A DNA stretch of 64,000 nt, from assembly GCA_045613985.1 (NCBI GenBank), contig JAZLCA010000001.1, positions 616 through 64,615 on the forward strand, given 5' to 3'. Under the pieces are notes generated by a model that saw only the letters and a list, made by a program, of their open reading frames with translations, searched no databases and had not been told where the DNA came from. Source of the stretch: Eubacteriales bacterium. GTDB lineage: Bacteria > Bacillota > Clostridia > Oscillospirales > CAG-272. Position numbers and translations under genes: made by a program. Positions 8,017 through 17,677 of this stretch are shown here, in pieces. Within the stretch, counting starts at the first letter, position 1. Every line of letters starts with the position of its first letter.

Positions 8017-10494
8017 ATGGCAATTCGAGTATTGCTTACCGTCTTGCTGTTGACAACAATCGTGGTGTTGTTTGCAGCGTGTCAGCATGAGCATGTTTAT
8101 GCTGCATGGACGGTAGAAAAACAAGAAACGTGTACCGAAAACGGTATCGAAGTTCGTGTGTGTGAATGCGGCGAAAAAGAACGCAGGGACATTCCGATGA
8201 AAGAACACACACCCGTTACTGATGAAGCCATTGCCGCAACCTGTACAACGGATGGCAAGGCGGAAGGCTCTCACTGCGGCGTATGTGAAACGGTCCTTGT
8301 AGCACAGAACGTAGTTCCCGCAACGGAACACAGCGTCGTTACCGACGAAGCCGTTGCTCCGACCTGTATGACGGACGGTAAAACGCAGGGCACTCACTGT
8401 GGCACGTGTCAGGCTGTCATTATTCCTCAGGTCGGAATTCCTGCAACGGGCCATGCTCCTGTTAACGACGACGCCATTGCTCCTACCTGCACGACGGACG
8501 GTAAAACGCAGGGCGCTCACTGTGGCACGTGTCAAGCGGTCATTATTCCTCAGGTTAATATTCCTGCGCTGGGCCATATTGCTGTGAAGGATCTCGCCGT
8601 TGCCGTAACCTGCACGACGGACGGAAAGACGGAAGGCTCTCACTGCGCCGTATGCTTGGAAGTTCTCGTGGCGCAAAACGTTATTCCCGCAACGGGCCAC
8701 ACTTCCCTGAAGGATGCCGCCGTTGCTGCAACCTGTACGACGGACGGAAAGACGGAAGGCTCTCACTGTGGCGTATGCCAGACAATTCTCGTAGCACAAA
8801 ACGTTATTCCCGCCACCGGCCACACCTCCGTGAAGGATGCTGCCGTTGCTCCGACCTGTACGGCGAACGGTAAGACGGAAGGAAGTCACTGTGGCACGTG
8901 CGCAACTGTTCTGGTGGCGCAAAACATCCTTCCTGCGACGGGACACAGCACCGTGAAGGATGCTGCCGTTGCTCCCACCTGTACAAAGGATGGTAAAACG
9001 CAGGGTACTCACTGCAAAACGTGTCAAGAAATCATCATTCCCCAGGTGAAGATTCCCGCATTGGGTCATGCCTCTGTGACCGATGCCGCCGTTGCCGTAA
9101 CCTGTACAACGGACGGTAAGACGGAAGGCTCTCACTGCGCCGTATGCTCAGAAGTTCTCGTGGCGCAAAATGTCATTCATGCAACGGGACACAAGATCGT
9201 TACTACTGCCGCCGTTGTCGCAACTTGCACGACGGATGGTAAGACGAAAGGCTCTCACTGCAGCGTGTGCGCGGAAGTTGTGGTAGCACAGGACGTCATT
9301 CCCGCAACGGGTCACAAGTATAACGATGGAAAGATTTTGGAAGAGGCCACATGTACTACCCAAGGCACCAGAACGTTCACTTGTACGGTTTCTGCTTGCG
9401 GCCATAGCTATACCGAGTCCTACTCGCTGCCGGCCTATACGGCAACGGAGATCTATAATCAGTCGATTGAGTTCGTTGGAGAAATCATTACTTATGATAG
9501 GGAGGGCAAAGAGTTTGCCCAGGGATCGGGATTCGTTATTTCTTCTGACGGCAAGATCGTTACAAATTATCATGTCCTCGAAGATGCCTACTCCGCAAAA
9601 ATTACGATCAATGGAACTACATATGACATCGCGTACGTTTTAGCCTATGATGCCCACATCGATCTGGCTGTGCTGAAGATCAATGCATCCGGTTTGCCTG
9701 TGGCGCGTATTTGCAAGCAACCCGTAAATGTTGGTGAAACCGTATATGCCCTTGGTTCGCCTCGAGGTATGACCAATACGTATTCGCAGGGCATTGTAAC
9801 GTACGCAAACAGAGTGGTTGACGATGTTTCGCACATTCAGCACGATGCGTCGATTGCTGCCGGTAATTCGGGCGGTCCGTTGATTAACGTTTACGGAGAA
9901 GTTATAGGCATCAACACCTGGACGGTGATTAATTCTCAAAACCTTAATTTCGCCGTATCCGTAACCGAACTGGACAACTTGGTATATGGAACCCCGCTTA
10001 GTATGGCAGAGTTCTATCAAAAGGAATTCGACGTGTTCTTTAAGTTGAAGAATTACATTACGGAAAACGGTTCTTACAACGCAGACACGGGAATGTATAT
10101 GCTCATTCTTGGCGAGTCCTATTCTTCGGATCGTTCGCTCAAGTATACCAGAGCAGCGTTTTATGACGTGAGTGACAATATCGTGATCCTTGCTTTGATT
10201 GTCAACGATGGAGAGCTTTGGCTGTTTATTGAAATCGACGAGGGGTATGATGGCATATATAATTGGATGTACTTTGACGATTATGGGTACGAAATGAGCG
10301 GTGCCGTCACTGCGGCTACCTTTACATCGAATACTCTGTTGGGATACAGCTACACCAACATCCGTTCTTCCTCAATGAAAGCTACTGTGCGCGAATTGGC
10401 GTCCTCGATGATGTCTTTGCTTTGTATGTTTATCAACGAAGACGGTGCGCCGATTGGAGTGACGGCTGAAGATCTGTATTTCTATAATTATTAA
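8017..10494 (+). CDS. Lipoprotein with tandem His/Cys-rich 41-aa repeats, an S1C (trypsin/HtrA-like) serine protease domain and a C-terminal domain of unknown function
   Basis: Lipobox LFAAC. Catalytic motifs TNYHV, DLAVLKI and GNSGGPL are present. Confidence 0.85.
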   Translation: MAIRVLLTVLLLTTIVVLFAACQHEHVYAAWTVEKQETCTENGIEVRVCECGEKERRDIPMKEHTPVTDEAIAATCTTDGKAEGSHCGVCETVLVAQNVVPATEHSVVTDEAVAPTCMTDGKTQGTHCGTCQAVIIPQVGIPATGHAPVNDDAIAPTCTTDGKTQGAHCGTCQAVIIPQVNIPALGHIAVKDLAVAVTCTTDGKTEGSHCAVCLEVLVAQNVIPATGHTSLKDAAVAATCTTDGKTEGSHCGVCQTILVAQNVIPATGHTSVKDAAVAPTCTANGKTEGSHCGTCATVLVAQNILPATGHSTVKDAAVAPTCTKDGKTQGTHCKTCQEIIIPQVKIPALGHASVTDAAVAVTCTTDGKTEGSHCAVCSEVLVAQNVIHATGHKIVTTAAVVATCTTDGKTKGSHCSVCAEVVVAQDVIPATGHKYNDGKILEEATCTTQGTRTFTCTVSACGHSYTESYSLPAYTATEIYNQSIEFVGEIITYDREGKEFAQGSGFVISSDGKIVTNYHVLEDAYSAKITINGTTYDIAYVLAYDAHIDLAVLKINASGLPVARICKQPVNVGETVYALGSPRGMTNTYSQGIVTYANRVVDDVSHIQHDASIAAGNSGGPLINVYGEVIGINTWTVINSQNLNFAVSVTELDNLVYGTPLSMAEFYQKEFDVFFKLKNYITENGSYNADTGMYMLILGESYSSDRSLKYTRAAFYDVSDNIVILALIVNDGELWLFIEIDEGYDGIYNWMYFDDYGYEMSGAVTAATFTSNTLLGYSYTNIRSSSMKATVRELASSMMSLLCMFINEDGAPIGVTAEDLYFYNY
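8206..9312 (+). repeat. 9 x 123-bp in-frame tandem repeats (41 aa each), with degenerate units on both sides
   Basis: Unit H-x11-C-x10-C-x2-C, for example HTSLKDAAVAATCTTDGKTEGSHCGVCQTILVAQNVIPATG. Confidence 0.9.
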
Positions 10495-10548: not shown

Positions 10549-10653
10549 TGGTCGAGGTGACAAGATTCAGAACTTAGTTTTGCGCCGAAAATTCAGCAGT
10601 AACCCATAGTTTCGCGCAGCGCAAAACGAGCAAATGCTGTCGCATTTGCGAAG
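10549..10653. repeat. Copy A of a ~105-nt repeat that begins with a degenerate tRNA-Pro 3' end
   Basis: TGGTCGAGGTGACAAGATTCAGAAC is the tRNA 3' 24 nt with a 1-nt insertion. Further copies lie at 10718-10825 and 17439-17545. Confidence 0.7.
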
Positions 10654-10723
10654 CTCAAATCGACAAACTCTAGCTAAAAATAGAGCAGGGAAGCTAAAGC
10701 CTCCCTGCTCTATTTTTGGTTGA

Positions 10724-10931
10724 GGTGACAAGATTCAGAACTTAGTTTTGCGCAGAAAATTCAGCAGTAACCCATAGTTTGGTGTAGCGCAAAACGAGCA
10801 AATGCTGTCGCATTTGCGAAGTCCTGAATCCGTGAAGCATCAAGCGATAAAACAAAAAGCAGGGATAACCCTGCTTTTTGTTTTATGGTCGAGGTGACAA
10901 GATTCGAACTTGCGACTTCTACGTCCCGAAC
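10724..10931. repeat. Left 208-bp direct repeat bracketing the island
   Basis: Aligns without indels to 17439-17646, with about 8 mismatches by eye. Confidence 0.9.
10886..10931 (-). pseudogene. tRNA-Pro 3' fragment (46 nt, from the anticodon loop to CCA), an att-type duplicate
   Basis: Identical to 17601-17646. Identity stops inside the anticodon loop. Confidence 0.85.
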
Positions 10932-11172
10932 TTATGTCATTTGTTGAACTTTCGGTTATTACTTACAATCTTTACAAGCTTTATTTTAACATGGCGCTGC
11001 GGATCCGTGCGCTCTTGACGGCGCTTTTTTGTTTTACAGGAATTGATTTATGCCGGTGCGCGGCAGAATGCGTAACAAGCGCGTGGGATTGCGTAACACA
11101 TCACAAACGGTTTCATGTAAATACGCATGGGAGAGTTTGCAAAAAGGTTGCGAATAACTCAATTAAAGGCTG

Positions 11173-11201
11173 TGTACAAATCAATCCAAATGCGATATAA
11201 T
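11173..11201 (+). promoter_or_regulatory. Candidate promoter TGTACA-17-TATAAT for the XRE gene
   Basis: -35 at 11173-11178 and -10 at 11196-11201. Confidence 0.5.
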
Positions 11202-11255
11202 GTCATCATTAAAATTCAAAGACAAGTTATTGTTGCGTTGGTGGGAGGACGAAAA

Positions 11256-11582
11256 ATGTCGCTATCAAAAGAAACGATAGGAAAAAGGATTTCAAATGCA
11301 AGAAAAGCAGCGGGGTTAACACAAGAGGAACTATCTGAAAAAATCGGCATATCCGAAAAGTATTTAAGTCGAATAGAATGTGGAAAGCAAGTTCCAAGCA
11401 TCACCATTATTTGGAGAATATGTGAGGTGCTACGTATTTCGGTGGATAATTTGCTTTCGCTAGGTCAGATTACGGCTTCTGATAGTAGCATACATAATGA
11501 GATCGCCCATTTCTCAACATATGAGCAGGAGCAAATCATGGAGATCATAAAAATTATCAAAAAGATAAAAAATCAACCGTAA
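11256..11582 (+). CDS. XRE-family helix-turn-helix transcriptional regulator
   Basis: ATG at 11256 follows GGGAGG. Contains GKRISNARKAAGLTQEELSEKIGISEKYLSRIECGKQVPS, a classic HTH_3 pattern. Confidence 0.85.
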   Translation: MSLSKETIGKRISNARKAAGLTQEELSEKIGISEKYLSRIECGKQVPSITIIWRICEVLRISVDNLLSLGQITASDSSIHNEIAHFSTYEQEQIMEIIKIIKKIKNQP

Positions 11583-11585
11583 GTT

Positions 11586-11629
11586 CAACCGATAGGTATA
11601 GAGATATACTTATCGGTTGTTTTCTTTTT
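11586..11629 (+). terminator. Intrinsic terminator
   Basis: CAACCGATA...TATCGGTTG stem followed by TTTTCTTTTT. Confidence 0.8.
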
Positions 11630-11724
11630 CGCGAGATTTGATAGAATGTTTCGTAATAAAGATACCATTAAATAAATTCATCTGTTCGTGATAAAATAAT
11701 TAGGTAGAAGGAGGATGATAGAAT

Positions 11725-12564
11725 ATGAGAAAAATAACAAATGAAACAATACAATCATTCAATGACTATCTAATTAACGAGGAAAAGGCAGCGGCAACCA
11801 TCACTAAGTATCTGCATGATGTGGGCGGATTTCAAATATGGCTTGGCGAACAAGAACTATGCAAAGCGGCAATTCTTGCTTATAAGGCATATCTTTGCGA
11901 GCATTACGCCCCAGCAAGTGTCAATGCCGCGCTCTCGTCACTCAATAGTTTTTTCAATTTTATGGAGTGGTACGATTTGAGAGTGAAGAACCTTAAAATC
12001 CAGAAGCAGATATTTGCTTCAACGGACAAGGAGTTGACTAAAGCCGAGTATGATCGCCTTTTGAGTGCGGCAAAACAGAAGAAAAACGAGCGTTTGTATC
12101 TCTTGATGCAGACGATCTGCTCCACGGGTATCCGCGTATCCGAGGTGCGCTATGTTACTGTGGAGGCAGTTGCACGCGGTATTGCCGAGATCAACTGCAA
12201 GGGCAAGCGCAGACAGGTGTTCTTGCCCAAACAGCTTTGTCAGATCTTGAAGCAGTATATCAAGGAACAAAAAATAACAAGCGGAGCCGTGTTCGTAACG
12301 AAAAACGGCAATCCGCTGGATAGATCGAATATCTGGAGTGATATGAAAAAACTGTGTAAGGCGGCGAACGTGTCGGGAAAGAAGGTCTTTCCGCACAACC
12401 TCCGTCACCTTTTCGCGCGCACTTATTACAGCTTGCAAAAGGACATCGTGCGCTTGGCTGACATTCTCGGGCACAGTAGCGTGAACACAACGAGAATTTA
12501 TACAATGGAAACAGGGGAGATACACCGCAGACAAATTCAGAAATTAGGGCTTTTGCGGTGTTAA
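11725..12564 (+). CDS. Tyrosine recombinase (Xer/invertase-like, 279 aa, no arm-binding N-domain)
   Basis: RBS GAAGGAGGA. SAM-like N-domain. Catalytic residues in TGIRVSE (R), HNLRH (H-x-x-R), LGHSS (H) and TRIYT (Y). Confidence 0.9.
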   Translation: MRKITNETIQSFNDYLINEEKAAATITKYLHDVGGFQIWLGEQELCKAAILAYKAYLCEHYAPASVNAALSSLNSFFNFMEWYDLRVKNLKIQKQIFASTDKELTKAEYDRLLSAAKQKKNERLYLLMQTICSTGIRVSEVRYVTVEAVARGIAEINCKGKRRQVFLPKQLCQILKQYIKEQKITSGAVFVTKNGNPLDRSNIWSDMKKLCKAANVSGKKVFPHNLRHLFARTYYSLQKDIVRLADILGHSSVNTTRIYTMETGEIHRRQIQKLGLLRC

Positions 12565-12584
12565 AACGGGCAAAAAATAAAACT

Positions 12585-12608
12585 ACCACATAATTCTCAT
12601 TATGTAGT
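12585..12608. repeat. Inverted repeat, left copy (ACCACATAATTCTCATTATGTAGT)
   Basis: Exact reverse complement of 12811-12834. Confidence 0.95.
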
Positions 12609-12631
12609 AGATATATAATTATACGTAATAT

Positions 12632-12660
12632 ATTTTACCACTTGTCAACATATTTGTCAA
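12632..12660 (-). promoter_or_regulatory. Near-consensus promoter TTGACA-17-TGgTAAAAT inside the invertible segment, currently reading leftward
   Basis: -35 at 12660-12655, TG at 12640-12639, -10 at 12637-12632 (minus strand). Confidence 0.65.
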
Positions 12661-12810
12661 TCGAGAAACGAGATAAAATTAGCTTTTACGATAAAATTTA
12701 CGAAAACAAGCATAGGAAACAGACCAATGAAGATTTTGACTTTTCATTGGTCTTGTTGAGCGTGGCACAATAGTATTGCGCTTTTAAATTTTAAATTTTA
12801 TATTTTATTC

Positions 12811-12834
12811 ACTACATAATGAGAATTATGTGGT
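12811..12834. repeat. Inverted repeat, right copy
   Basis: ACTACATAATGAGAATTATGTGGT. Confidence 0.95.
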
Positions 12835-12847
12835 GAAAGGAGGGCCT

Positions 12848-14236
12848 ATGTCGATTATCGAAGTTATTAAATATGAAGGCGACAATAGTACATTCATATG
12901 GAAACACCCTTGCGAGGATTTCAATACGACCACACAGCTGATCGTACACGAATCGCAAGAGGCGATTTTCTTCGCAAATGGTCAACTTCTTGATGTGTTT
13001 GGAGCGGGCAGGCACACACTTGAAACGCAAAACATTCCGTTGCTCAGAAAAATAGTAAATATACCGACAGGTGGCAAGTCAGCGTTTCACTGTGAGGTCT
13101 ATTTTATCAACAAAACAGTGCAAATGGCTCTTAAATGGGGAACGGATTCTAAGGTGCGATTTCTTGATACCAATCTTGGCATTCCTTTGGAGATTGGTGC
13201 GTGTGGAGAAATGAATCTTGCCGTTGCCGATTCGAGAAAGCTTCTTTTGAAGCTCGTTGGAACGATGCGTGGTATTGCTTGGGGAGAAAATGGTATGGGA
13301 TTTACAAAATCCCTTCAAACTTCCTTCCGCCCATTGATTTCCACCGCAGTAAAATCACATTTATCAACAGCGATAAAATCAAATAATATAAACATTCTTG
13401 AGATTGACGAAAATCTTGAAACGCTTTCAAAAATCATGCACGAGTGCATTATTGGAGGCTTTGAGGAATACGGACTCACGATTCCTCAGTTTTATATAAC
13501 CAATATCGCACTCCCCGAAAACGATCCAAATTTTAAGAGAATGAAGGAATTATATACAGTTTCCTTCCAGACAAGAATGATTCAGGCGGATGCCCTTATA
13601 AGAACAACTCAGGCTGATGCTGAAGCGGGGGTTACAGCAGCGCGCCGCAAGATTGAAATGGAGCGTCAGATTACCGAAACAGAGGTCGCAAAGAGTGAGG
13701 CTGAACGTGATCTTATTCGCGCTCAAACAGTAGCCCAAGCTGCAAAGATGACGGGCTTTGCCGAGGCTGAAATTATGGCCGCGCAAGGCTATACCAAGAA
13801 AGATATACTGGCAACAGAAGTGCAGAAGGCATACGCCGAAGGTCTTGGCAATATGACGATCAACGGTGGGGGCGGTGTGGCAGGCGATATGATTGGACTT
13901 GGCGTTGGAATGGCGGCGGCGGGTGCCGTCGCGCCTCAACTCGGCGAAATGTTCAAGGGCTTTGCTCCGACGGTTCCCACACAGACACCCGAAGTTAAGT
14001 GCGCTAAATGCGGCGCGGCTCTTCCCGCAAACGCGAAGTTCTGTTTGGAGTGTGGAGAAAAAGTTGTTACTCCCCCACCCTCTGATATGATCGTTTGCCC
14101 CGAATGTGGTAATACGGTTGCGAAAGGTAAATTCTGCCCCGAGTGCGGACACAAGTTGGTAACTGTTTGTCCCAAATGCGGAAAAGATGTAGTCGCCGGT
14201 GCTAAATTCTGCCTTGAATGCGGCGAAAAGTTATGA
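12848..14236 (+). CDS. YdjI-type SPFH (Band-7-like) protein with a coiled coil and three C-terminal zinc ribbons
   Basis: RBS AAGGAGG at 12837-12843. N-terminus IEVIKYEG..FIWKHP...LIVHESQEAIFF.NGQ...EVYFINK...KWGT. The C-terminus has 3 x CxxC-x9-10-CxxC. Confidence 0.8.
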   Translation: MSIIEVIKYEGDNSTFIWKHPCEDFNTTTQLIVHESQEAIFFANGQLLDVFGAGRHTLETQNIPLLRKIVNIPTGGKSAFHCEVYFINKTVQMALKWGTDSKVRFLDTNLGIPLEIGACGEMNLAVADSRKLLLKLVGTMRGIAWGENGMGFTKSLQTSFRPLISTAVKSHLSTAIKSNNINILEIDENLETLSKIMHECIIGGFEEYGLTIPQFYITNIALPENDPNFKRMKELYTVSFQTRMIQADALIRTTQADAEAGVTAARRKIEMERQITETEVAKSEAERDLIRAQTVAQAAKMTGFAEAEIMAAQGYTKKDILATEVQKAYAEGLGNMTINGGGGVAGDMIGLGVGMAAAGAVAPQLGEMFKGFAPTVPTQTPEVKCAKCGAALPANAKFCLECGEKVVTPPPSDMIVCPECGNTVAKGKFCPECGHKLVTVCPKCGKDVVAGAKFCLECGEKL

Positions 14237-14250
14237 TGGAGGGCGCGACA

Positions 14251-14652
14251 ATGAAAAAAAGCTTCACTCCACACATAATACTTGCAATTCTATTTGGGTT
14301 GTTTAACGTTGTTGCCTTTGCGATTCCGTCGGATAAAACGTCTACGTTTTGGGTGGCGTATGGATTTACAGCCGCTATGTTTTGCGTTGAGGTGATTGTT
14401 TTACTTATGGCGTTTCCAAAGGATAATACGGCAAAAAAACAATTTTTGTCGTGGCCTCTTATCTGTGTTGGCACGACATACTTCATCATTCAAACGATTT
14501 TGTTTTTCCCATTCAAGCTCTTCCCCAGCATTCCCTCGTGGATAGCCGTTATCGTATTTTCTCTTGTATTCGGAATAGCTCTCATTTGCATTATTGCAAC
14601 TAAAGCAAGCGCTAATTCAATTAAGAATTATGACGAAGCGCGCAAGAGGTGA
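14251..14652 (+). CDS. Small integral membrane protein (about 4 TM helices)
   Basis: ATG at 14251 follows GGAGGG. Four hydrophobic stretches. Confidence 0.7.
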   Translation: MKKSFTPHIILAILFGLFNVVAFAIPSDKTSTFWVAYGFTAAMFCVEVIVLLMAFPKDNTAKKQFLSWPLICVGTTYFIIQTILFFPFKLFPSIPSWIAVIVFSLVFGIALICIIATKASANSIKNYDEARKR

Positions 14653-14657
14653 TTGGT

Positions 14658-15827
14658 ATGGCGATACTGAAGGAACGCTGTCCCAATTGCGGCGGAACAA
14701 TAATTCTTCCGCCGAATGCAAGCGTCGGAGAATGCGATTACTGCGGTGTGACCTATTCTCTGTCAGAATTGCAAAAAATCAAGGATGCAATTAATGAAGG
14801 ACAGCAAATAACAAAAGAAAGCGATTGCAACCTTGACGAAGACGAATCTTATGAATCTGCACTTGATACGAGCGAGGCGGACGAAATTTCACTTGGTGAA
14901 CTTTGCAAAAAAGCCGAAATAGCTCTTGAGTCTGAGCAATGGCAGATTGCAAACAGCTTCAGTAATGAAATATTACGCAGAGATCCCAAATTTGCCAAAG
15001 CTTATCTTTATAAGCTTCTTGCAGAACATAAAGTGTTCAAGAAAGAAGAACTGGCAAACTTAAGAAAGCCGTTTGATGGCAGCGATAATTACCGCTTGCT
15101 AATTAGATTTGCTGATTTGTATCTAAAGTCGGAAATTGAAAATTACAGCGAAGCGGTAAAAGCAAGATATCAAGCGGAAACGTTGGAAAATCAATATCAA
15201 GCTTTATGTAACCAAACAAAAACCGCCTCTACCGAACAAGACTATCAAAATTTGGCTAACGGATTCCATAGCCTTGAGGACTACAAAGATTCTAAAAAGC
15301 TTTCCGCGGAATATTTGAAGAAATTCAAGAGCGCAAATAGGCAGTCGCAAGCCAAAGCAAAAAGAAAAAAGTTTTTTATAAAACTTATAATCTTCGGGAT
15401 TGTTTTTGCTATTATCGGAGTGCCTATATTAAAGAAAGCATCCTATCGTGGTGGACTGTTTTCGGTGGAAGTCACAGATAAGGTCAACGTTGATTACGAC
15501 GACTATACTGCGGATTTTGTATTTAAGTTCAACATTATTAACGATAGCTGGCACAATGCCAATTACTTGGAAGGATATATAACCATTAGTGACGCGGAAG
15601 GCACAGTCCTTGCAAGTGGTGGCAATTGGTTTAGCGGAGCGATTTCAGCTAAAAACTCGAATTATCATGAACTATCGTTTGATCTTGACCGAAGTGCTGC
15701 TACAACCCGACTTTGGAATACCGATTTTTCAGACCTTGTTATTAAGTACAGAATCACCGAAATCCATTTTGATGACGGAACTGTAAAAGAATATACTGGA
15801 AAAGACATTATCGTGAACAAGCCTTAA
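14658..15827 (+). CDS. Zinc-ribbon / TPR-like / single-TM protein with a beta-rich C-terminal domain
   Basis: ATG at 14658 follows AGAGGTG. Contains CPNC-x14-CDYC, the TM segment FFIKLIIFGIVFAIIGVPIL, and a C-terminal domain of about 130 aa. Confidence 0.7.
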   Translation: MAILKERCPNCGGTIILPPNASVGECDYCGVTYSLSELQKIKDAINEGQQITKESDCNLDEDESYESALDTSEADEISLGELCKKAEIALESEQWQIANSFSNEILRRDPKFAKAYLYKLLAEHKVFKKEELANLRKPFDGSDNYRLLIRFADLYLKSEIENYSEAVKARYQAETLENQYQALCNQTKTASTEQDYQNLANGFHSLEDYKDSKKLSAEYLKKFKSANRQSQAKAKRKKFFIKLIIFGIVFAIIGVPILKKASYRGGLFSVEVTDKVNVDYDDYTADFVFKFNIINDSWHNANYLEGYITISDAEGTVLASGGNWFSGAISAKNSNYHELSFDLDRSAATTRLWNTDFSDLVIKYRITEIHFDDGTVKEYTGKDIIVNKP

Positions 15828-15874
15828 TTGGCTGAAATTTGTATTTGCAGATTTCAAATATATTAATGATGTTA

Positions 15875-15891
15875 TCTCTTGCTTTGAGTAA
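15875..15891. repeat. 17-bp motif TCTCTTGCTTTGAGTAA, inverted relative to the copies at 16798-16814 and 16831-16847
   Basis: Exact reverse-complement match. Confidence 0.9.
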
Positions 15892-15941
15892 TAAAAACAT
15901 TGGAGATTTATAACATTTTATTTGTATGGAAGGAAACTCAA

Positions 15942-16772
15942 ATGAAAAAAATATTAGCAAAATTAAAACATATGTGGAAGGATCCAATCAACACAATTGA
16001 GGAAGCGGATGCGCGCAAGAAAGAGATATTGCCTTGGTTGTATGGTTGCATTGGAGCTGCAGTTTTGTTCTGTGGATTGTCAAATGTTGGGCCGCTCGGT
16101 TTCTTGATGATCTTTGGGTTGGTAGCTATTTTCGGAGTGATGGCGTTTGGATTTATGCTTTTTGTTACTGTCAAGGCTAAAGAGAAGTTTGGCGCTCTTA
16201 CCTGTAACAACTGTAACACCATGGCAACAATCAAAACCCCTGAGGAATATGAGGCGCAGGTATCTTATGTCTATGACGTTGCATTTAAGGCAGAGTATGA
16301 GGGTATAAGCCACCCTCAAAGCAACAACGGTGTAATTTCCGAGGTTAGAGCCAAGGCACATGCTTCGGTCGCCATTTCGATAGACCTTAAGTGTGCTAAC
16401 TGCGGCACCGTAAAGCATCTTGAATACGTAATCACTCCTTTCAAGTGCTCTATTATAGAGAAGAAGGTTCTTGTAAGAGACGTTGAACTTGTAAAGATGC
16501 GACTGGAGAATGCTGTTAAGGAAGTTGTTAACGATTTTAACGACCTTGAAAAGCGCGTAAAAATTCCCTTTACCATTCACAGCATTCACAATCCCAAGTA
16601 TGAGGAGAGAACTAAGCCTCAAGTTGGAAACGACGGAGTTGCGTTCCCCCACTATAACGGTGTAAAGATCGATTATCACAGAACTCCCGAAGAAATGATT
16701 AGAGGATTCTTCCTTGAGAACGAACTTAATGGTAAGATCATCGATCCTAGCAAGCCCAAAAAGTCAAAGTAA
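15942..16772 (+). CDS. Membrane protein (2 N-terminal TM helices) with a four-Cys (CNNC...CANC) domain
   Basis: ATG at 15942 follows GGAAGGA. Hydrophobic N-terminus. Confidence 0.65.
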   Translation: MKKILAKLKHMWKDPINTIEEADARKKEILPWLYGCIGAAVLFCGLSNVGPLGFLMIFGLVAIFGVMAFGFMLFVTVKAKEKFGALTCNNCNTMATIKTPEEYEAQVSYVYDVAFKAEYEGISHPQSNNGVISEVRAKAHASVAISIDLKCANCGTVKHLEYVITPFKCSIIEKKVLVRDVELVKMRLENAVKEVVNDFNDLEKRVKIPFTIHSIHNPKYEERTKPQVGNDGVAFPHYNGVKIDYHRTPEEMIRGFFLENELNGKIIDPSKPKKSK

Positions 16773-16794
16773 TCAATTATACATATCAATAGAT

Positions 16795-16860
16795 ATTTTA
16801 CTCAAAGCAAGAGAACATATATAAAACATTTTACTCAAAGCAAGAGAACATATATAAAAC
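16795..16860 (+). repeat. 2 x 33-bp perfect tandem repeat (ATTTTACTCAAAGCAAGAGAACATATATAAAAC)
   Basis: Each unit contains TTTACT-17-TATAAA. A partial third unit follows. Confidence 0.9.
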
Positions 16861-16899
16861 ATTTCACTTATATTGATTGAATCAAAAGAGGAATAAAAA

Positions 16900-17151
16900 A
16901 TGATATTTAAGCAAGTTAGATTAATTTTCGATGAGTATGGAAACTGTATATTTCATGGTGATAAATGTATAGTAACACCAAATGAACCAGCCGCTTCTAC
17001 TAAGCAGGTTTATGGCAAGGAAGGCTATAGCTTTATGAAGGAAGAAGAATACTTGACCGCTATTGCTGCAGAAGGTTGGGCATTGCACACTGCTAATTAT
17101 TGTGTTCTTGGAAGGCAAGAAGCTCACTATTTCTTATTTGTGAAAGAATAA
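16900..17151 (+). CDS. Small hypothetical protein (83 aa)
   Basis: RBS AAAGAGGAA. No recognised domain. Confidence 0.5.
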   Translation: MIFKQVRLIFDEYGNCIFHGDKCIVTPNEPAASTKQVYGKEGYSFMKEEEYLTAIAAEGWALHTANYCVLGRQEAHYFLFVKE

Positions 17152-17438
17152 TAATTGGCATGTAAACATATATTTTTTCTCAAGGCAAGGTAGCCATAAG
17201 AAGAATGCCGCTTTTGAAAACTGTTAGTAGTTGCGAGATGCGATGTTATTCCAATGTGCAAAAGTGAACAAGAACATTTGCTTAGTATTCAAAGCCGTGA
17301 TCGTGGCTATTTACAAAAACAACGAGTAGTCAAGACTCCTCGTCTCCTCATCTGCGTAGCAAACTGTGTAACACCCCTTCAAAAATTGCGTAACAACTAA
17401 AAAATAAAGCCTTGAAAACGTAATGTTTTCAAGGCTTT

Positions 17439-17677
<239 letters not shown>

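What the first reader, a model, noticed from the sequence alone, without database searches (positions are those of the whole stretch)
12565..12847. Candidate invertible promoter switch between a tyrosine recombinase gene and the SPFH operon
Seen in the sequence: 21 nt after the recombinase stop lies ACCACATAATTCTCATTATGTAGT (12585-12608). Its exact reverse complement is at 12811-12834, ending 13 nt before the next ATG, and the RBS AAGGAGG lies outside the repeat. Each copy is itself a dyad (ACATAAT-TCTC-ATTATGT): two arm-like half-sites around an asymmetric core. The core is oppositely oriented in the two copies, which is the geometry for inversion rather than excision. The 202-bp interior carries a near-consensus promoter on the minus strand, TTGACA (12660-12655), 17 nt, TGgTAAAAT (12640-12632). 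It currently fires toward the recombinase 3' end. Inversion would place it about 50-55 nt upstream of the ATG at 12848. An 11-bp palindromic hairpin (12721-12753) would sit between the recombinase gene and the promoter in either orientation. A weaker plus-strand TTGCGC-17-TATATT (12776-12804) could give basal expression. Inference: this is an ON/OFF phase-variation switch that is OFF in this assembly, analogous to known tyrosine-recombinase invertons.
Basis: partly seen in the sequence, partly recalled or inferred. Interest (0 to 1): 0.85.

Follow-up and report, generated by a model that had tools for sequence, protein, structure and literature searches.

The report
Invertible promoter switch with Xer-like recombinase
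A 250-bp DNA segment carrying a strong promoter lies between two inverted copies of a recombination site, next to the gene for its own recombinase. Near-identical loci in other metagenomes hold the segment in both orientations, so it is a real ON/OFF phase-variation switch of a well-known kind, and it is OFF in this window.

Summary
A perfect 24-nt inverted repeat (12585-12608 / 12811-12834) brackets a 202-bp segment. That segment carries a near-consensus promoter on the minus strand, pointing away from the SPFH operon.

- Homologous recombinases (50-96% identity) in 50+ contigs are always followed by the same repeat pair.
- For two recombinase proteins, contigs from different samples have identical or near-identical flanks and differ by an exact reverse complement of the segment from repeat to repeat (L027/L028, L035/L037).
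- Two cross-species pairs are flipped in the same way.
- The 6-bp centre of the site differs between lineages (TTCTCA, TTCTCG, TTCCCA, TTAACC, TTTGCC). It matches in both copies of every switch scored with an intact repeat pair. A tyrosine recombinase that exchanges strands there would require this.

The site resembles dif (…CATAA-N6-TTATGT…). The recombinase is Xer-like and has all its catalytic residues.

Two hairpins followed by a T-run inside the segment, and the left repeat followed by a T-run on the minus strand, look like terminators that insulate the OFF state.

This is a known kind of system and probably already catalogued among Clostridia invertons. Interest is moderate.

The parts
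11253..11582 (+). XRE-family helix-turn-helix gene upstream of the recombinase. An HTH gene holds this position in most close relatives. It is a possible regulator, but its role has not been tested.
   Evidence: Pfam HTH_3, E 6e-16. Homologues sit upstream of the recombinase in L003 and L006. HTH genes are in the same position in L017-L059. A terminator-like hairpin at 11586-11619 follows the gene.
11725..12564 (+). Xer-like tyrosine recombinase of 279 aa, the presumed invertase.
   Evidence: Pfam Phage_integrase (E 6e-30) plus Phage_int_SAM_1. The best solved relatives are XerA and XerD. R137, K159/K161, H224, R227, H250 and Y259 are present and invariant across relatives down to 50% identity.
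12565..12584 (-). A-rich tract before the left repeat. On the minus strand it reads as a U-run directly after the repeat's hairpin. Inferred function: a terminator for the short transcript made by the promoter in the OFF state.
   Evidence: The terminator scan lists stem 12610..12583 plus TTTTATTTTT on the minus strand. Fold energy is -16 kcal/mol, z = -4.05. An A-rich tract precedes the left repeat in most relatives.
12585..12608 (+). Left recombination site (IRL). It reads ACCACATAA-TTCTCA-TTATGTAGT: two arms around a 6-bp centre, like a dif site.
   Evidence: Perfect inverted repeat with 12811-12834. Occurrence is well above chance. The centre co-varies in both copies across lineages. The arm ends CATAA/TTATGT match E. 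coli dif as printed in PMC2731167.
12609..12810 (.). Invertible interior of 202 bp.
   Evidence: It aligns on the same strand in OFF-state relatives and on the opposite strand in ON-state relatives, while the flanks stay co-linear.
12632..12660 (-). Promoter TTGACA-17-TGgTAAAAT. At present it fires toward the 3' end of the recombinase gene.
   Evidence: 11/12 match with an extended -10 element. The -35 and TGnTAnAAT elements are conserved when all relatives are aligned with the promoter pointing forward.
12718..12757 (.). Hairpin B (core 12721-12753, AGACCAATGAA…TTCATTGGTCT), conserved in sequence among close relatives.
12758..12807 (+). Hairpin A (12758-12783) followed by a T-run. In the present orientation it looks like an intrinsic terminator on the plus strand. 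Inferred function: it stops read-through from the recombinase gene just before the right repeat.
   Evidence: Folded together with hairpin B: -25.8 kcal/mol, z = -5.0, 0 of 200 shuffles as stable. The same hairpin plus U-run occurs in L006, L007, L017, L027, L029, L034 and L040. L027 gives z = -7.3.
12811..12834 (-). Right recombination site (IRR), the exact reverse complement of the left one.
12837..12850 (+). Ribosome-binding site AAGGAGG and the start codon of the first cargo gene, both outside the invertible segment.
   Evidence: No T-run follows the right repeat's hairpin on the plus strand.
12848..14236 (+). First cargo gene: an SPFH/Band-7 protein with C-terminal double zinc ribbons.
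   Evidence: Pfam Band_7_1 (E 6e-38), DZR and Zn_Ribbon_1. The same kind of cargo follows the switch in L006, L017, L027 and L040.
14218..16772 (+). Rest of the presumed cargo operon. It comprises a 144-aa membrane protein, a 392-aa protein with an N-terminal zinc ribbon and a 290-aa membrane/zinc-ribbon protein. All are on the same strand and overlap or lie close together.
   Evidence: ORFs. There are only weak Pfam or NCBIfam hits and no PADLOC hit. The 144-aa protein is 45-47% identical to the second cargo gene of L017 and L027.

Best explanation
The region 12585-12834 is an invertible promoter (an inverton). I propose that the adjacent Xer-like tyrosine recombinase (11725-12564) binds the two inverted, dif-like sites (ACCACATAA-TTCTCA-TTATGTAGT), exchanges strands in the 6-bp centre, and so flips the 202-bp interior.

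The interior carries one strong sigma-70-type promoter close to one end.
- In the orientation found in this window (OFF), the promoter fires toward the end of the recombinase gene. Its short transcript meets the left-site hairpin followed by a U-run. Read-through from the recombinase gene meets two hairpins and a U-run just before the right site. The SPFH operon should therefore be silent.
- After inversion (ON), the promoter lies about 54 nt upstream of the ATG at 12848. It reads through the right site, which has no U-run behind it, into the SPFH/zinc-ribbon membrane-protein operon.

Shown: the sequence anatomy, and natural inversion of this element family between fixed flanks.
Inferred: that the neighbouring recombinase is the enzyme, that the promoter and terminators work as described, and that this particular copy still flips.
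For: 1. The repeat pair is perfect and far above chance.
2. All seven species genomes that contain the 21-nt site have it directly after a homologous recombinase (50-95% identity). Six show the inverted pair 185-261 bp apart; the seventh, L003, is cut off before the partner.
3. Contigs encoding the same recombinase protein carry the segment in both orientations. For P0010, L027, L030 and L032 match the window and L028 is flipped. L027 and L028 have 0/1200 and 7/1200 flank mismatches and an exact 239-nt reverse complement. For P0097, L034/L035 are flipped relative to L036-L038, and L035 and L037 differ by one SNP plus an exact 244-nt reverse complement.
4. Cross-species pairs are flipped. In L004/L005 the flanks are 87% and 85% identical, and the interior is 44% identical as found but 88% when flipped. 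L009/L013 behave the same way.
5. These assemblies used k = 141 (contig names such as k141_…), which is longer than the 24-nt repeat. Each orientation therefore had to be spanned by real reads.
6. Five variants of the site centre occur, and the two copies match wherever both are intact.
7. In the P0097 set the two inner arms differ, and they travel with the interior. This places the exchange within the first 18 nt of the site.
8. In 39 of 40 scored switches a promoter matching at least 10/12 lies close to one repeat and points outward (22-36 nt in the 27 scored). Counts are 14 ON and 25 OFF, though many are near-duplicates.
9. The -35, extended -10 and both hairpins are conserved blocks. The folds are significant.
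10. The recombinase has the full R-K-H-R-H-Y set.
11. Several contigs end inside or just after the left site, as expected where one sample holds both orientations.
Against: - No read-level data from the window's own strain were available. Its recombinase, SPFH and HTH proteins are not on record in other assemblies, so flipping of this exact copy is inferred from relatives whose recombinases are 92-96% identical.
- All the closest loci with a different recombinase protein (L003, L006, L007, L011) are in the same OFF orientation as the window.
- Some sets are fixed in one state: P0022 8/8 ON, P0011 7/7 OFF, P0041 and P0046 7/7 OFF.
- Promoter and terminator activity are consensus-based predictions. 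Sigma-70 rules are assumed for an uncultured member of the Clostridia.
- Nothing shows that the adjacent recombinase, rather than another enzyme, does the flipping. The support is constant linkage only.
Confidence: 0.88

Rival explanations
1. The element belongs to an inverting family, but this copy is frozen in the OFF state. It would be a relic that no longer switches in this strain.
For: Only one orientation is seen for the window and for its nearest non-identical relatives L003, L006, L007 and L011. Some sets are fixed in one state. The P0022 set, which has a changed left arm, is 8/8 ON.
Against: Here the two 24-nt sites are identical, including the centre. The recombinase ORF is intact with every catalytic residue. 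Sets with perfect repeats, such as P0010, do show both states.
Confidence: 0.07
2. Inversion is real, but the output is not set by promoter direction. Orientation would instead decide whether a leader terminator or hairpin forms, as in the C. difficile cwpV switch, with transcription starting outside the segment.
For: The interior holds two conserved hairpins and a U-run that works on one strand only.
Against: In every lineage the most conserved interior blocks besides the hairpins are a -35 and an extended -10 at a fixed distance from one repeat. No comparable promoter lies between the recombinase stop and the left site. In the ON state the hairpins lie upstream of the promoter, not in the leader.
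Confidence: 0.03
3. The two sites are dif-like targets used for excision, integration or cassette exchange of a mobile module (IMEX-like or pdif-like). On this reading the recombinase is the integrase of the tRNA-Pro island rather than an invertase.
For: The site resembles dif. The locus lies in a low-GC island flanked by direct repeats of the tRNA-Pro 3' half, and no other integrase is present. Homology of the module with relatives that carry other cargo ends at the outer edge of the right site.
Against: The sites are inverted, and the asymmetric centre points in opposite directions. A tyrosine recombinase then gives inversion, not excision. Inversion products are what is observed. The island's repeats share nothing with the site. 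No third site exists in the 64 kb. Of all the loci examined, only L031 lacks the segment, and there the break lies inside the interior rather than at a site.
Confidence: 0.02
4. This is a chance palindrome pair, a MITE-like insertion or an assembly artefact with no programmed rearrangement.
For: AT-rich intergenic DNA often holds hairpins. Each repeat also scores as a terminator-like hairpin.
Against: None of 100 shuffles reproduce the pair. The pair is always directly 3' of the recombinase gene, in relatives down to 50% identity. No target-site duplication is present. The repeat is shorter than the assembly k-mer, so assemblers cannot flip the segment without supporting reads.
Confidence: 0.005

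Closest known systems
Inverton group 139 with its adjacent tyrosine recombinase ('invertase group 35') in cultured gut Clostridia (PhaseFinderDC study of the hCom2 community, PMC11892184)
   Same: It occurs in class Clostridia (32 of 33 invertons, 17 strains) and is intergenic, with a tyrosine-type recombinase nearly always next to it. The dimensions match: Clostridium sp. D5 has 26-nt repeats around 205 bp, and Intestinimonas has about 227 bp between its repeats. The orientation ratios shift during passage.
   Different: The repeat motif of group 139 is shown only in a figure, so I could not compare the sequences. Identity with this family is likely but unverified. That paper does not describe the resemblance to dif, the co-varying site centre, the terminators or SPFH cargo.
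E. coli fimS switch with FimB/FimE
   Same: It has a short invertible segment (about 300 bp) carrying a promoter, and tyrosine recombinases encoded next to it. The ON/OFF output depends on promoter direction. Orientation also affects transcripts that run toward the recombinase gene (my own knowledge).
   Different: The fim repeats are 9 bp. FimB and FimE are about 200 aa and lack the N-terminal SAM-like domain. The NCBIfam FimB/E-type invertase model scores only 30 bits against a cutoff of 221. fim needs IHF and Lrp sites, and nothing comparable was identified here.
Xer/dif chromosome-dimer resolution (XerC/XerD, and the single-recombinase XerA, XerS and XerH systems)
   Same: This is the best sequence relative of the recombinase. 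The site plan is two arms around a 6-bp centre, with arm ends CATAA / TTATGT as in E. coli dif, GGTGCGCATAA-TGTATA-TTATGTTAAAT (the 11-6-11 layout is from PMC5357621). As with XerS/difSL, the gene sits directly beside its site.
   Different: Here there are two sites in inverted order 202 bp apart, which gives inversion rather than resolution. All Xer equivalog models score far below their cutoffs (136 against 220, 130 against 330). No link to FtsK or the replication terminus is evident.
Clostridioides difficile RecV-dependent switches (cwpV, flgB and others; PMC5903667)
   Same: These are small intergenic invertible segments in a member of the Clostridia, flipped by a tyrosine recombinase, and they control envelope or signalling genes.
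   Different: RecV is encoded away from most of its sites and serves several unrelated repeats. cwpV and flgB act through the mRNA leader rather than a flipped promoter (my own knowledge). The repeat sequence found here does not appear in that paper.
Xer-like invertases of Mollicutes (Mycoplasma penetrans mpl promoter inversions; M. agalactiae Xer1/vpma; Ureaplasma mba)
   Same: Xer-family tyrosine recombinases flip short promoter-bearing segments or move a promoter between surface-protein genes (my own knowledge; Ureaplasma Xer-like recombinases and phase variation are mentioned in PMC3511179, listed).
   Different: The hosts, site sequences and cargo differ. Those systems often have many sites per genome, whereas here there is one pair per recombinase in the sequence seen.

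Membership tests
Tyrosine recombinase superfamily (Pfam PF00589) | Catalytic domain scores above the Pfam gathering threshold | tested here: met
   104.6 bits against a cutoff of 27.1.
Tyrosine recombinase superfamily (Pfam PF00589) | Catalytic residues R-K-H-R-H/W-Y present | tested here: met
   R137, K159/K161, H224, R227, H250 and Y259 are present. They align with the XerA motifs and are invariant in 5 relatives down to 50% identity.
Xer recombinases proper (XerC, XerD, XerA, XerS equivalogs) | Score at or above the curated NCBIfam equivalog cutoff | tested here: not met
   XerA 135.8 against 220; XerD 130.4 against 329.6; XerC 116.7 against 335; XerS 71.7 against 267. The protein is Xer-like but not a member of any of these.
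Xer recombinases proper (XerC, XerD, XerA, XerS equivalogs) | Acts at a single dif site near the replication terminus to resolve chromosome dimers | tested here: not met
   There are two inverted sites 202 bp apart, and inversion products are observed. The position of the terminus cannot be tested here.
dif-like core site | Two partly symmetric arms around a 6-8-bp centre in which strands are exchanged | tested here: met
   The site reads ACCACATAA-TTCTCA-TTATGTAGT. Only the centre varies between lineages, and it matches in both copies. The exchange maps to the first 18 nt of the site. The cleavage positions themselves were not determined.
Invertible promoter (inverton, operational PhaseFinder-type definition) | Inverted repeats flank a segment that is found in both orientations between fixed flanks | tested here: met
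   Met for the family: L027/L028, L035/L037, L004/L005 and L009/L013. Not testable for the window's own strain.
Invertible promoter (inverton, operational PhaseFinder-type definition) | The segment carries a promoter that drives the neighbouring gene in one orientation only | tested here: inconclusive
   A conserved promoter motif matching at least 10/12 points outward at one end in 39 of 40 switches. There are no transcript data.
FimB/FimE-type DNA invertases | Score at or above the NCBIfam cutoff for 'tyrosine-type DNA invertase' | tested here: not met
   30.4 bits against 221, and 18.2 against 222.
Inverton group 139 / invertase group 35 (PMC11892184) | Repeat sequence clusters with group 139, and the neighbouring recombinase clusters with group 35 | not testable with these tools
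   Neither the motif nor the sequences are in the held text or supplements. Only the dimensions, host class and recombinase linkage agree.

The most novel reading that the evidence does not exclude
The unit made of the recombinase gene plus the insulated invertible promoter may be a portable phase-variation cassette that gets placed in front of unrelated operons. Recombinases 92-96% identical, with near-identical switches, sit before unrelated cargo: an SPFH operon, a collagen-like surface protein, a MACPF-domain protein and unknown proteins. Nucleotide homology stops within a few bases of the outer edge of the right site. The dif-like sites might themselves mediate this relocation or cargo exchange. 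That would make the system a mobile, self-contained ON/OFF module derived from the Xer/dif machinery.
Probability: 0.25. Interest if true: 0.7.

Novelty: new member of a known kind. Interest (0 to 1): 0.45.

Why it matters
- The locus is a clean, sequence-defined example of phase variation in uncultured gut or rumen Clostridia, where few switches have been dissected.
- Natural variation already supplies a test. Five different 6-bp site centres occur, and the two copies of a switch match. This predicts that changing one copy blocks inversion and that changing both restores it.
- The design appears insulated on both sides by terminators, which would make it a tight, compact ON/OFF part.
- The cargo in this window is unusual for an inverton: a flotillin-like SPFH protein with zinc ribbons, plus membrane proteins. 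If the cargo is really phase-variable, then a membrane-organising or stress module in these bacteria is subject to bet-hedging.
- The family is very large. At least 8000 protein clusters match, which is the limit the search scores. Orientation calls for it could therefore be added to metagenome analyses.

Tried and rejected
- Exact-protein look-ups for the window's recombinase, SPFH and HTH proteins found nothing on record. The window's own strain could not be checked for the ON state.
- A full-text search for the repeat sequence found no relevant paper. It is also absent from the held supplements of PMC11892184 and from PMC5903667.
- The metagenome scan returned nine loci. L009, L013 and the fragment L011 belong to the family. 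The other six (L008, L010, L012, L014-L016) have a single site with no partner and no close recombinase, and I treated them as unrelated.
- The viral-contig scan gave four single sites with no partner and no recombinase. Nothing links the switch to phages.
- PADLOC gave no defence-system hit for any cargo protein. NCBIfam gave no meaningful name for the cargo.
- A search for a third dif-like site that could bound a cassette found none in 64 kb.
- I tried to get organism names for relatives so as to link them to Intestinimonas or Clostridium sp. D5. The only name returned was 'Clostridia bacterium'.
- MITE reading rejected: there is no target-site duplication, and the element is always attached to the recombinase gene.
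- L031 carries the same recombinase but diverges 19 nt inside the interior, not at the repeat. It is a deletion or a chimeric contig and does not show recombination at the site.
It fails the scan and overlaps hairpin A and its T-run.

Full report
**Observation.**
- ACCACATAATTCTCATTATGTAGT at 12585-12608 has its exact reverse complement at 12811-12834.
- The 18-nt core occurs only at these two places in the 64-kb window, even with three mismatches allowed. None of 100 dinucleotide-preserving shuffles gave two hits.
- Each copy is a near-palindrome that extends to 12+4+12 nt.
- A 279-aa ORF ends at 12564, and the next gene starts at 12848 behind AAGGAGG.
- The best promoter-like site in 11000-14500 is the minus-strand TTGACA-17-TGgTAAAAT at 12660-12632, an 11/12 match.
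- Flipping the interior in silico puts the -10 element at 12787 and a start site about 54 nt before the ATG.

**Genes.**
- The upstream ORF is a tyrosine recombinase with Phage_integrase and SAM-like N-terminal domains.
- Its nearest solved relatives are archaeal XerA and XerD.
- All NCBIfam Xer models match but score far below their cutoffs. The FimB/E invertase model scores only 30 bits.
- R137, K159/K161, H224, R227, H250 and Y259 are present, and they are invariant in relatives down to 50% identity.
- The downstream gene encodes an SPFH/Band-7 protein with double zinc ribbons. Three membrane or zinc-ribbon proteins of unknown family follow on the same strand. None matches a known defence system.

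**Relatives.**
- One scan of species-representative genomes with the 21-nt site returned seven MAGs of Clostridia, Oscillospiraceae and Faecousia. In all seven the site lies directly after a homologous recombinase gene of 50-95% identity. In six an inverted partner follows 185-261 bp further on. In the seventh, L003, the fetched stretch ends before the partner.
- The recombinase family is very large. In each of two searches the number of matching clusters reached about 8000, which is the most the search scores.
- Look-ups of six recombinase clusters gave 43 more contigs.

**Evidence for inversion.**
- Two contigs that encode the identical recombinase P0010 come from two samples. L027 and L028 have 0 mismatches in 1200 nt upstream and 7 in 1200 nt downstream. 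The 239 nt between and including the 18-nt repeat cores are an exact reverse complement. L030 and L032 share the state of L027.
- A second set, P0097, behaves the same way. L035 and L037 differ only by one SNP and by the exact reverse complement of 244 nt.
- Two pairs of orthologous loci from different species are also flipped. In L004/L005 the flanks are 87% and 85% identical, and the interior is 44% identical as found but 88% when flipped. L009/L013 behave likewise.
- A blastn of the window against these loci shows the same pattern. In L017, L028 and L029 the window's 12584-12834 aligns on the opposite strand while both flanks stay co-linear.
- Many of these contigs come from k = 141 assemblies. 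That k-mer is longer than the repeat, so an assembler cannot invent an orientation without reads that span it.
- Several contigs stop inside the left site, exactly where the two states begin to differ, or just after it. This is expected if one sample holds both states.

**Site anatomy.**
- Across lineages the arms stay the same and the six central bases change: TTCTCA in the window, then TTCTCG, TTCCCA, TTAACC and TTTGCC elsewhere.
- The two copies of one switch carry the same centre wherever both are intact. This is the pattern expected where a tyrosine recombinase needs identical overlap regions for strand exchange.
- In the P0097 set the two inner arms differ (CTTATGTTGT and CTTACGTGGT), and they move with the interior. 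The exchange therefore lies within the first 18 nt of the site.
- The layout of arm, 6-bp centre and arm, with the arm ends CATAA and TTATGT, matches dif (GGTGCGCATAA-TGTATA-TTATGTTAAAT in E. coli). The sequence is printed in PMC2731167 and the 11-6-11 layout is described in PMC5357621.
- Both arms are nearly the same, which fits a single recombinase acting as a homotetramer. This last point is an inference.

**Regulatory design.**
- I aligned all close relatives with the promoter pointing forward. The conserved blocks are the two sites, hairpin A preceded by an A-tract, hairpin B, the -35 element and TGnTAnAAT.
- Of 40 complete switches scored, 39 have a promoter matching at least 10/12 close to one site and pointing outward through it. 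In the 27 scored the -10 lies 22-36 nt from the site. Counts are 14 toward the cargo and 25 away from it, and many are near-duplicates.
- Read against the promoter's direction, hairpin B and hairpin A are followed by a U-run. In the OFF state this is the direction of read-through from the recombinase gene. In the window this structure is 12718-12807 on the plus strand (-25.8 kcal/mol, z = -5.0). In L027 z = -7.3.
- The left site's own hairpin is followed by a U-run only on the minus strand. This would end the short OFF-state transcript before it runs antisense into the recombinase gene.
- The right site has no U-run behind it, so ON-state transcripts should pass.
- These functions are inferred from sequence. 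The hairpin lies between the recombinase gene and the promoter only in the ON state. The 'weak basal promoter' at 12776-12804 is the 3' arm and T-run of hairpin A.

**State of the window.** The promoter points away from the SPFH operon, as in L027, so the switch is OFF. The sites are identical and the recombinase gene is intact, so I expect it to be active. I could not test this, because none of the window's proteins is on record in other assemblies.

**Cargo and portability.**
- The first downstream genes differ widely between loci. They include SPFH operons, an S26 signal peptidase followed by secreted proteins that gave no Pfam hit and that I read as TasA-like from their N-terminal sequences, and a helicase ahead of what look like glycosyltransferase and polysaccharide genes (not scanned against Pfam). 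They also include an Rrf2 regulator with a large secreted protein, a MACPF-domain protein, and a collagen-like surface protein.
- Most relate to the cell envelope, as is usual for phase variation.
- Among loci whose recombinases are 92-96% identical but whose cargo is unrelated, nucleotide homology ends within a few bases of the outer edge of the right site. This suggests a portable cassette, but it does not prove one. No third site exists in the window.

**Comparison with known systems.**
- The kind is well known: fimS with FimB/FimE, the RecV switches of C. difficile, the Xer-like invertases of Mollicutes, and many invertons found by read mapping in gut bacteria.
- A 2025 study of a defined gut community reports 'inverton group 139'. 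It has 32 of 33 members in Clostridia and is nearly always next to a tyrosine recombinase. One example has 26-nt repeats around 205 bp, and its orientation ratio shifted during passage.
- That group is probably this family. Its motif is not available as text, so I could not verify the match.
- I found no description of the dif-like site, the co-varying centre, the double insulation or SPFH cargo.

**Verdict.** It is a new, well-documented member of a known kind. Confidence that this is a recombinase-driven invertible promoter is about 0.88. Interest is moderate, at 0.45.

Noticed in passing
window 10700-10931 and 17420-17677 (island about 10932-17600): The switch and its cargo lie in a low-GC stretch (0.36-0.46, against 0.50-0.60 outside) next to tRNA-Pro(cgg) at 17601-17677 on the minus strand. 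The 3' 46 nt of the tRNA, plus about 185 nt downstream of it, are repeated directly at the other end. Further degenerate copies lie near 10550 and 17437. This looks like an integrated island or a series of integrations, yet no integrase other than the Xer-like recombinase is inside.
   Followed up: partly
window 16795-16860: A 33-nt unit, ATTTTACTCAAAGCAAGAGAACATATATAAAAC, occurs twice in tandem just after the last cargo gene. Its function is unknown.
   Followed up: no
window 8017-10494 (+): An 825-aa ORF has many cysteine-rich repeats of about 33 aa (weak Kazal/EGF-like hits) ahead of a trypsin-like protease domain.
   Followed up: no
L017-L025 (recombinase cluster P0022): The left site has a changed arm (ACATATT instead of ACATAAT) and no longer matches the right site. 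All 8 complete contigs are ON, and 6 further similar places were not shown. The switch may be locked.
   Followed up: partly
L031:1647-2200: The recombinase is identical to P0010 and the left site is intact. The sequence diverges 19 nt into the interior, there is no right site, and a DUF2971 gene follows. This is a deleted switch or a chimeric contig.
   Followed up: partly
L021, L039, L033, L045 (contig ends): These contigs end inside the left site, at the first base where the two orientations differ, or about 34 nt after it. This is the pattern expected when both orientations coexist in one sample and break the assembly graph.
   Followed up: partly
L017, L027, L040, L053, L057 and others, upstream of the recombinase: Close relatives carry TnpV (PF14198), DUF6809 and an XRE-HTH gene in a row upstream of the recombinase, which hints at a mobile-element origin. 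The window lacks TnpV and DUF6809, and its HTH is of a different subfamily.
   Followed up: partly
L008:740-2285: A single copy of the same 18-nt site lies between two distant recombinase-like genes (26-29% identity to the window's). It may be an ordinary Xer/dif-type locus and not an inverton.
   Followed up: no
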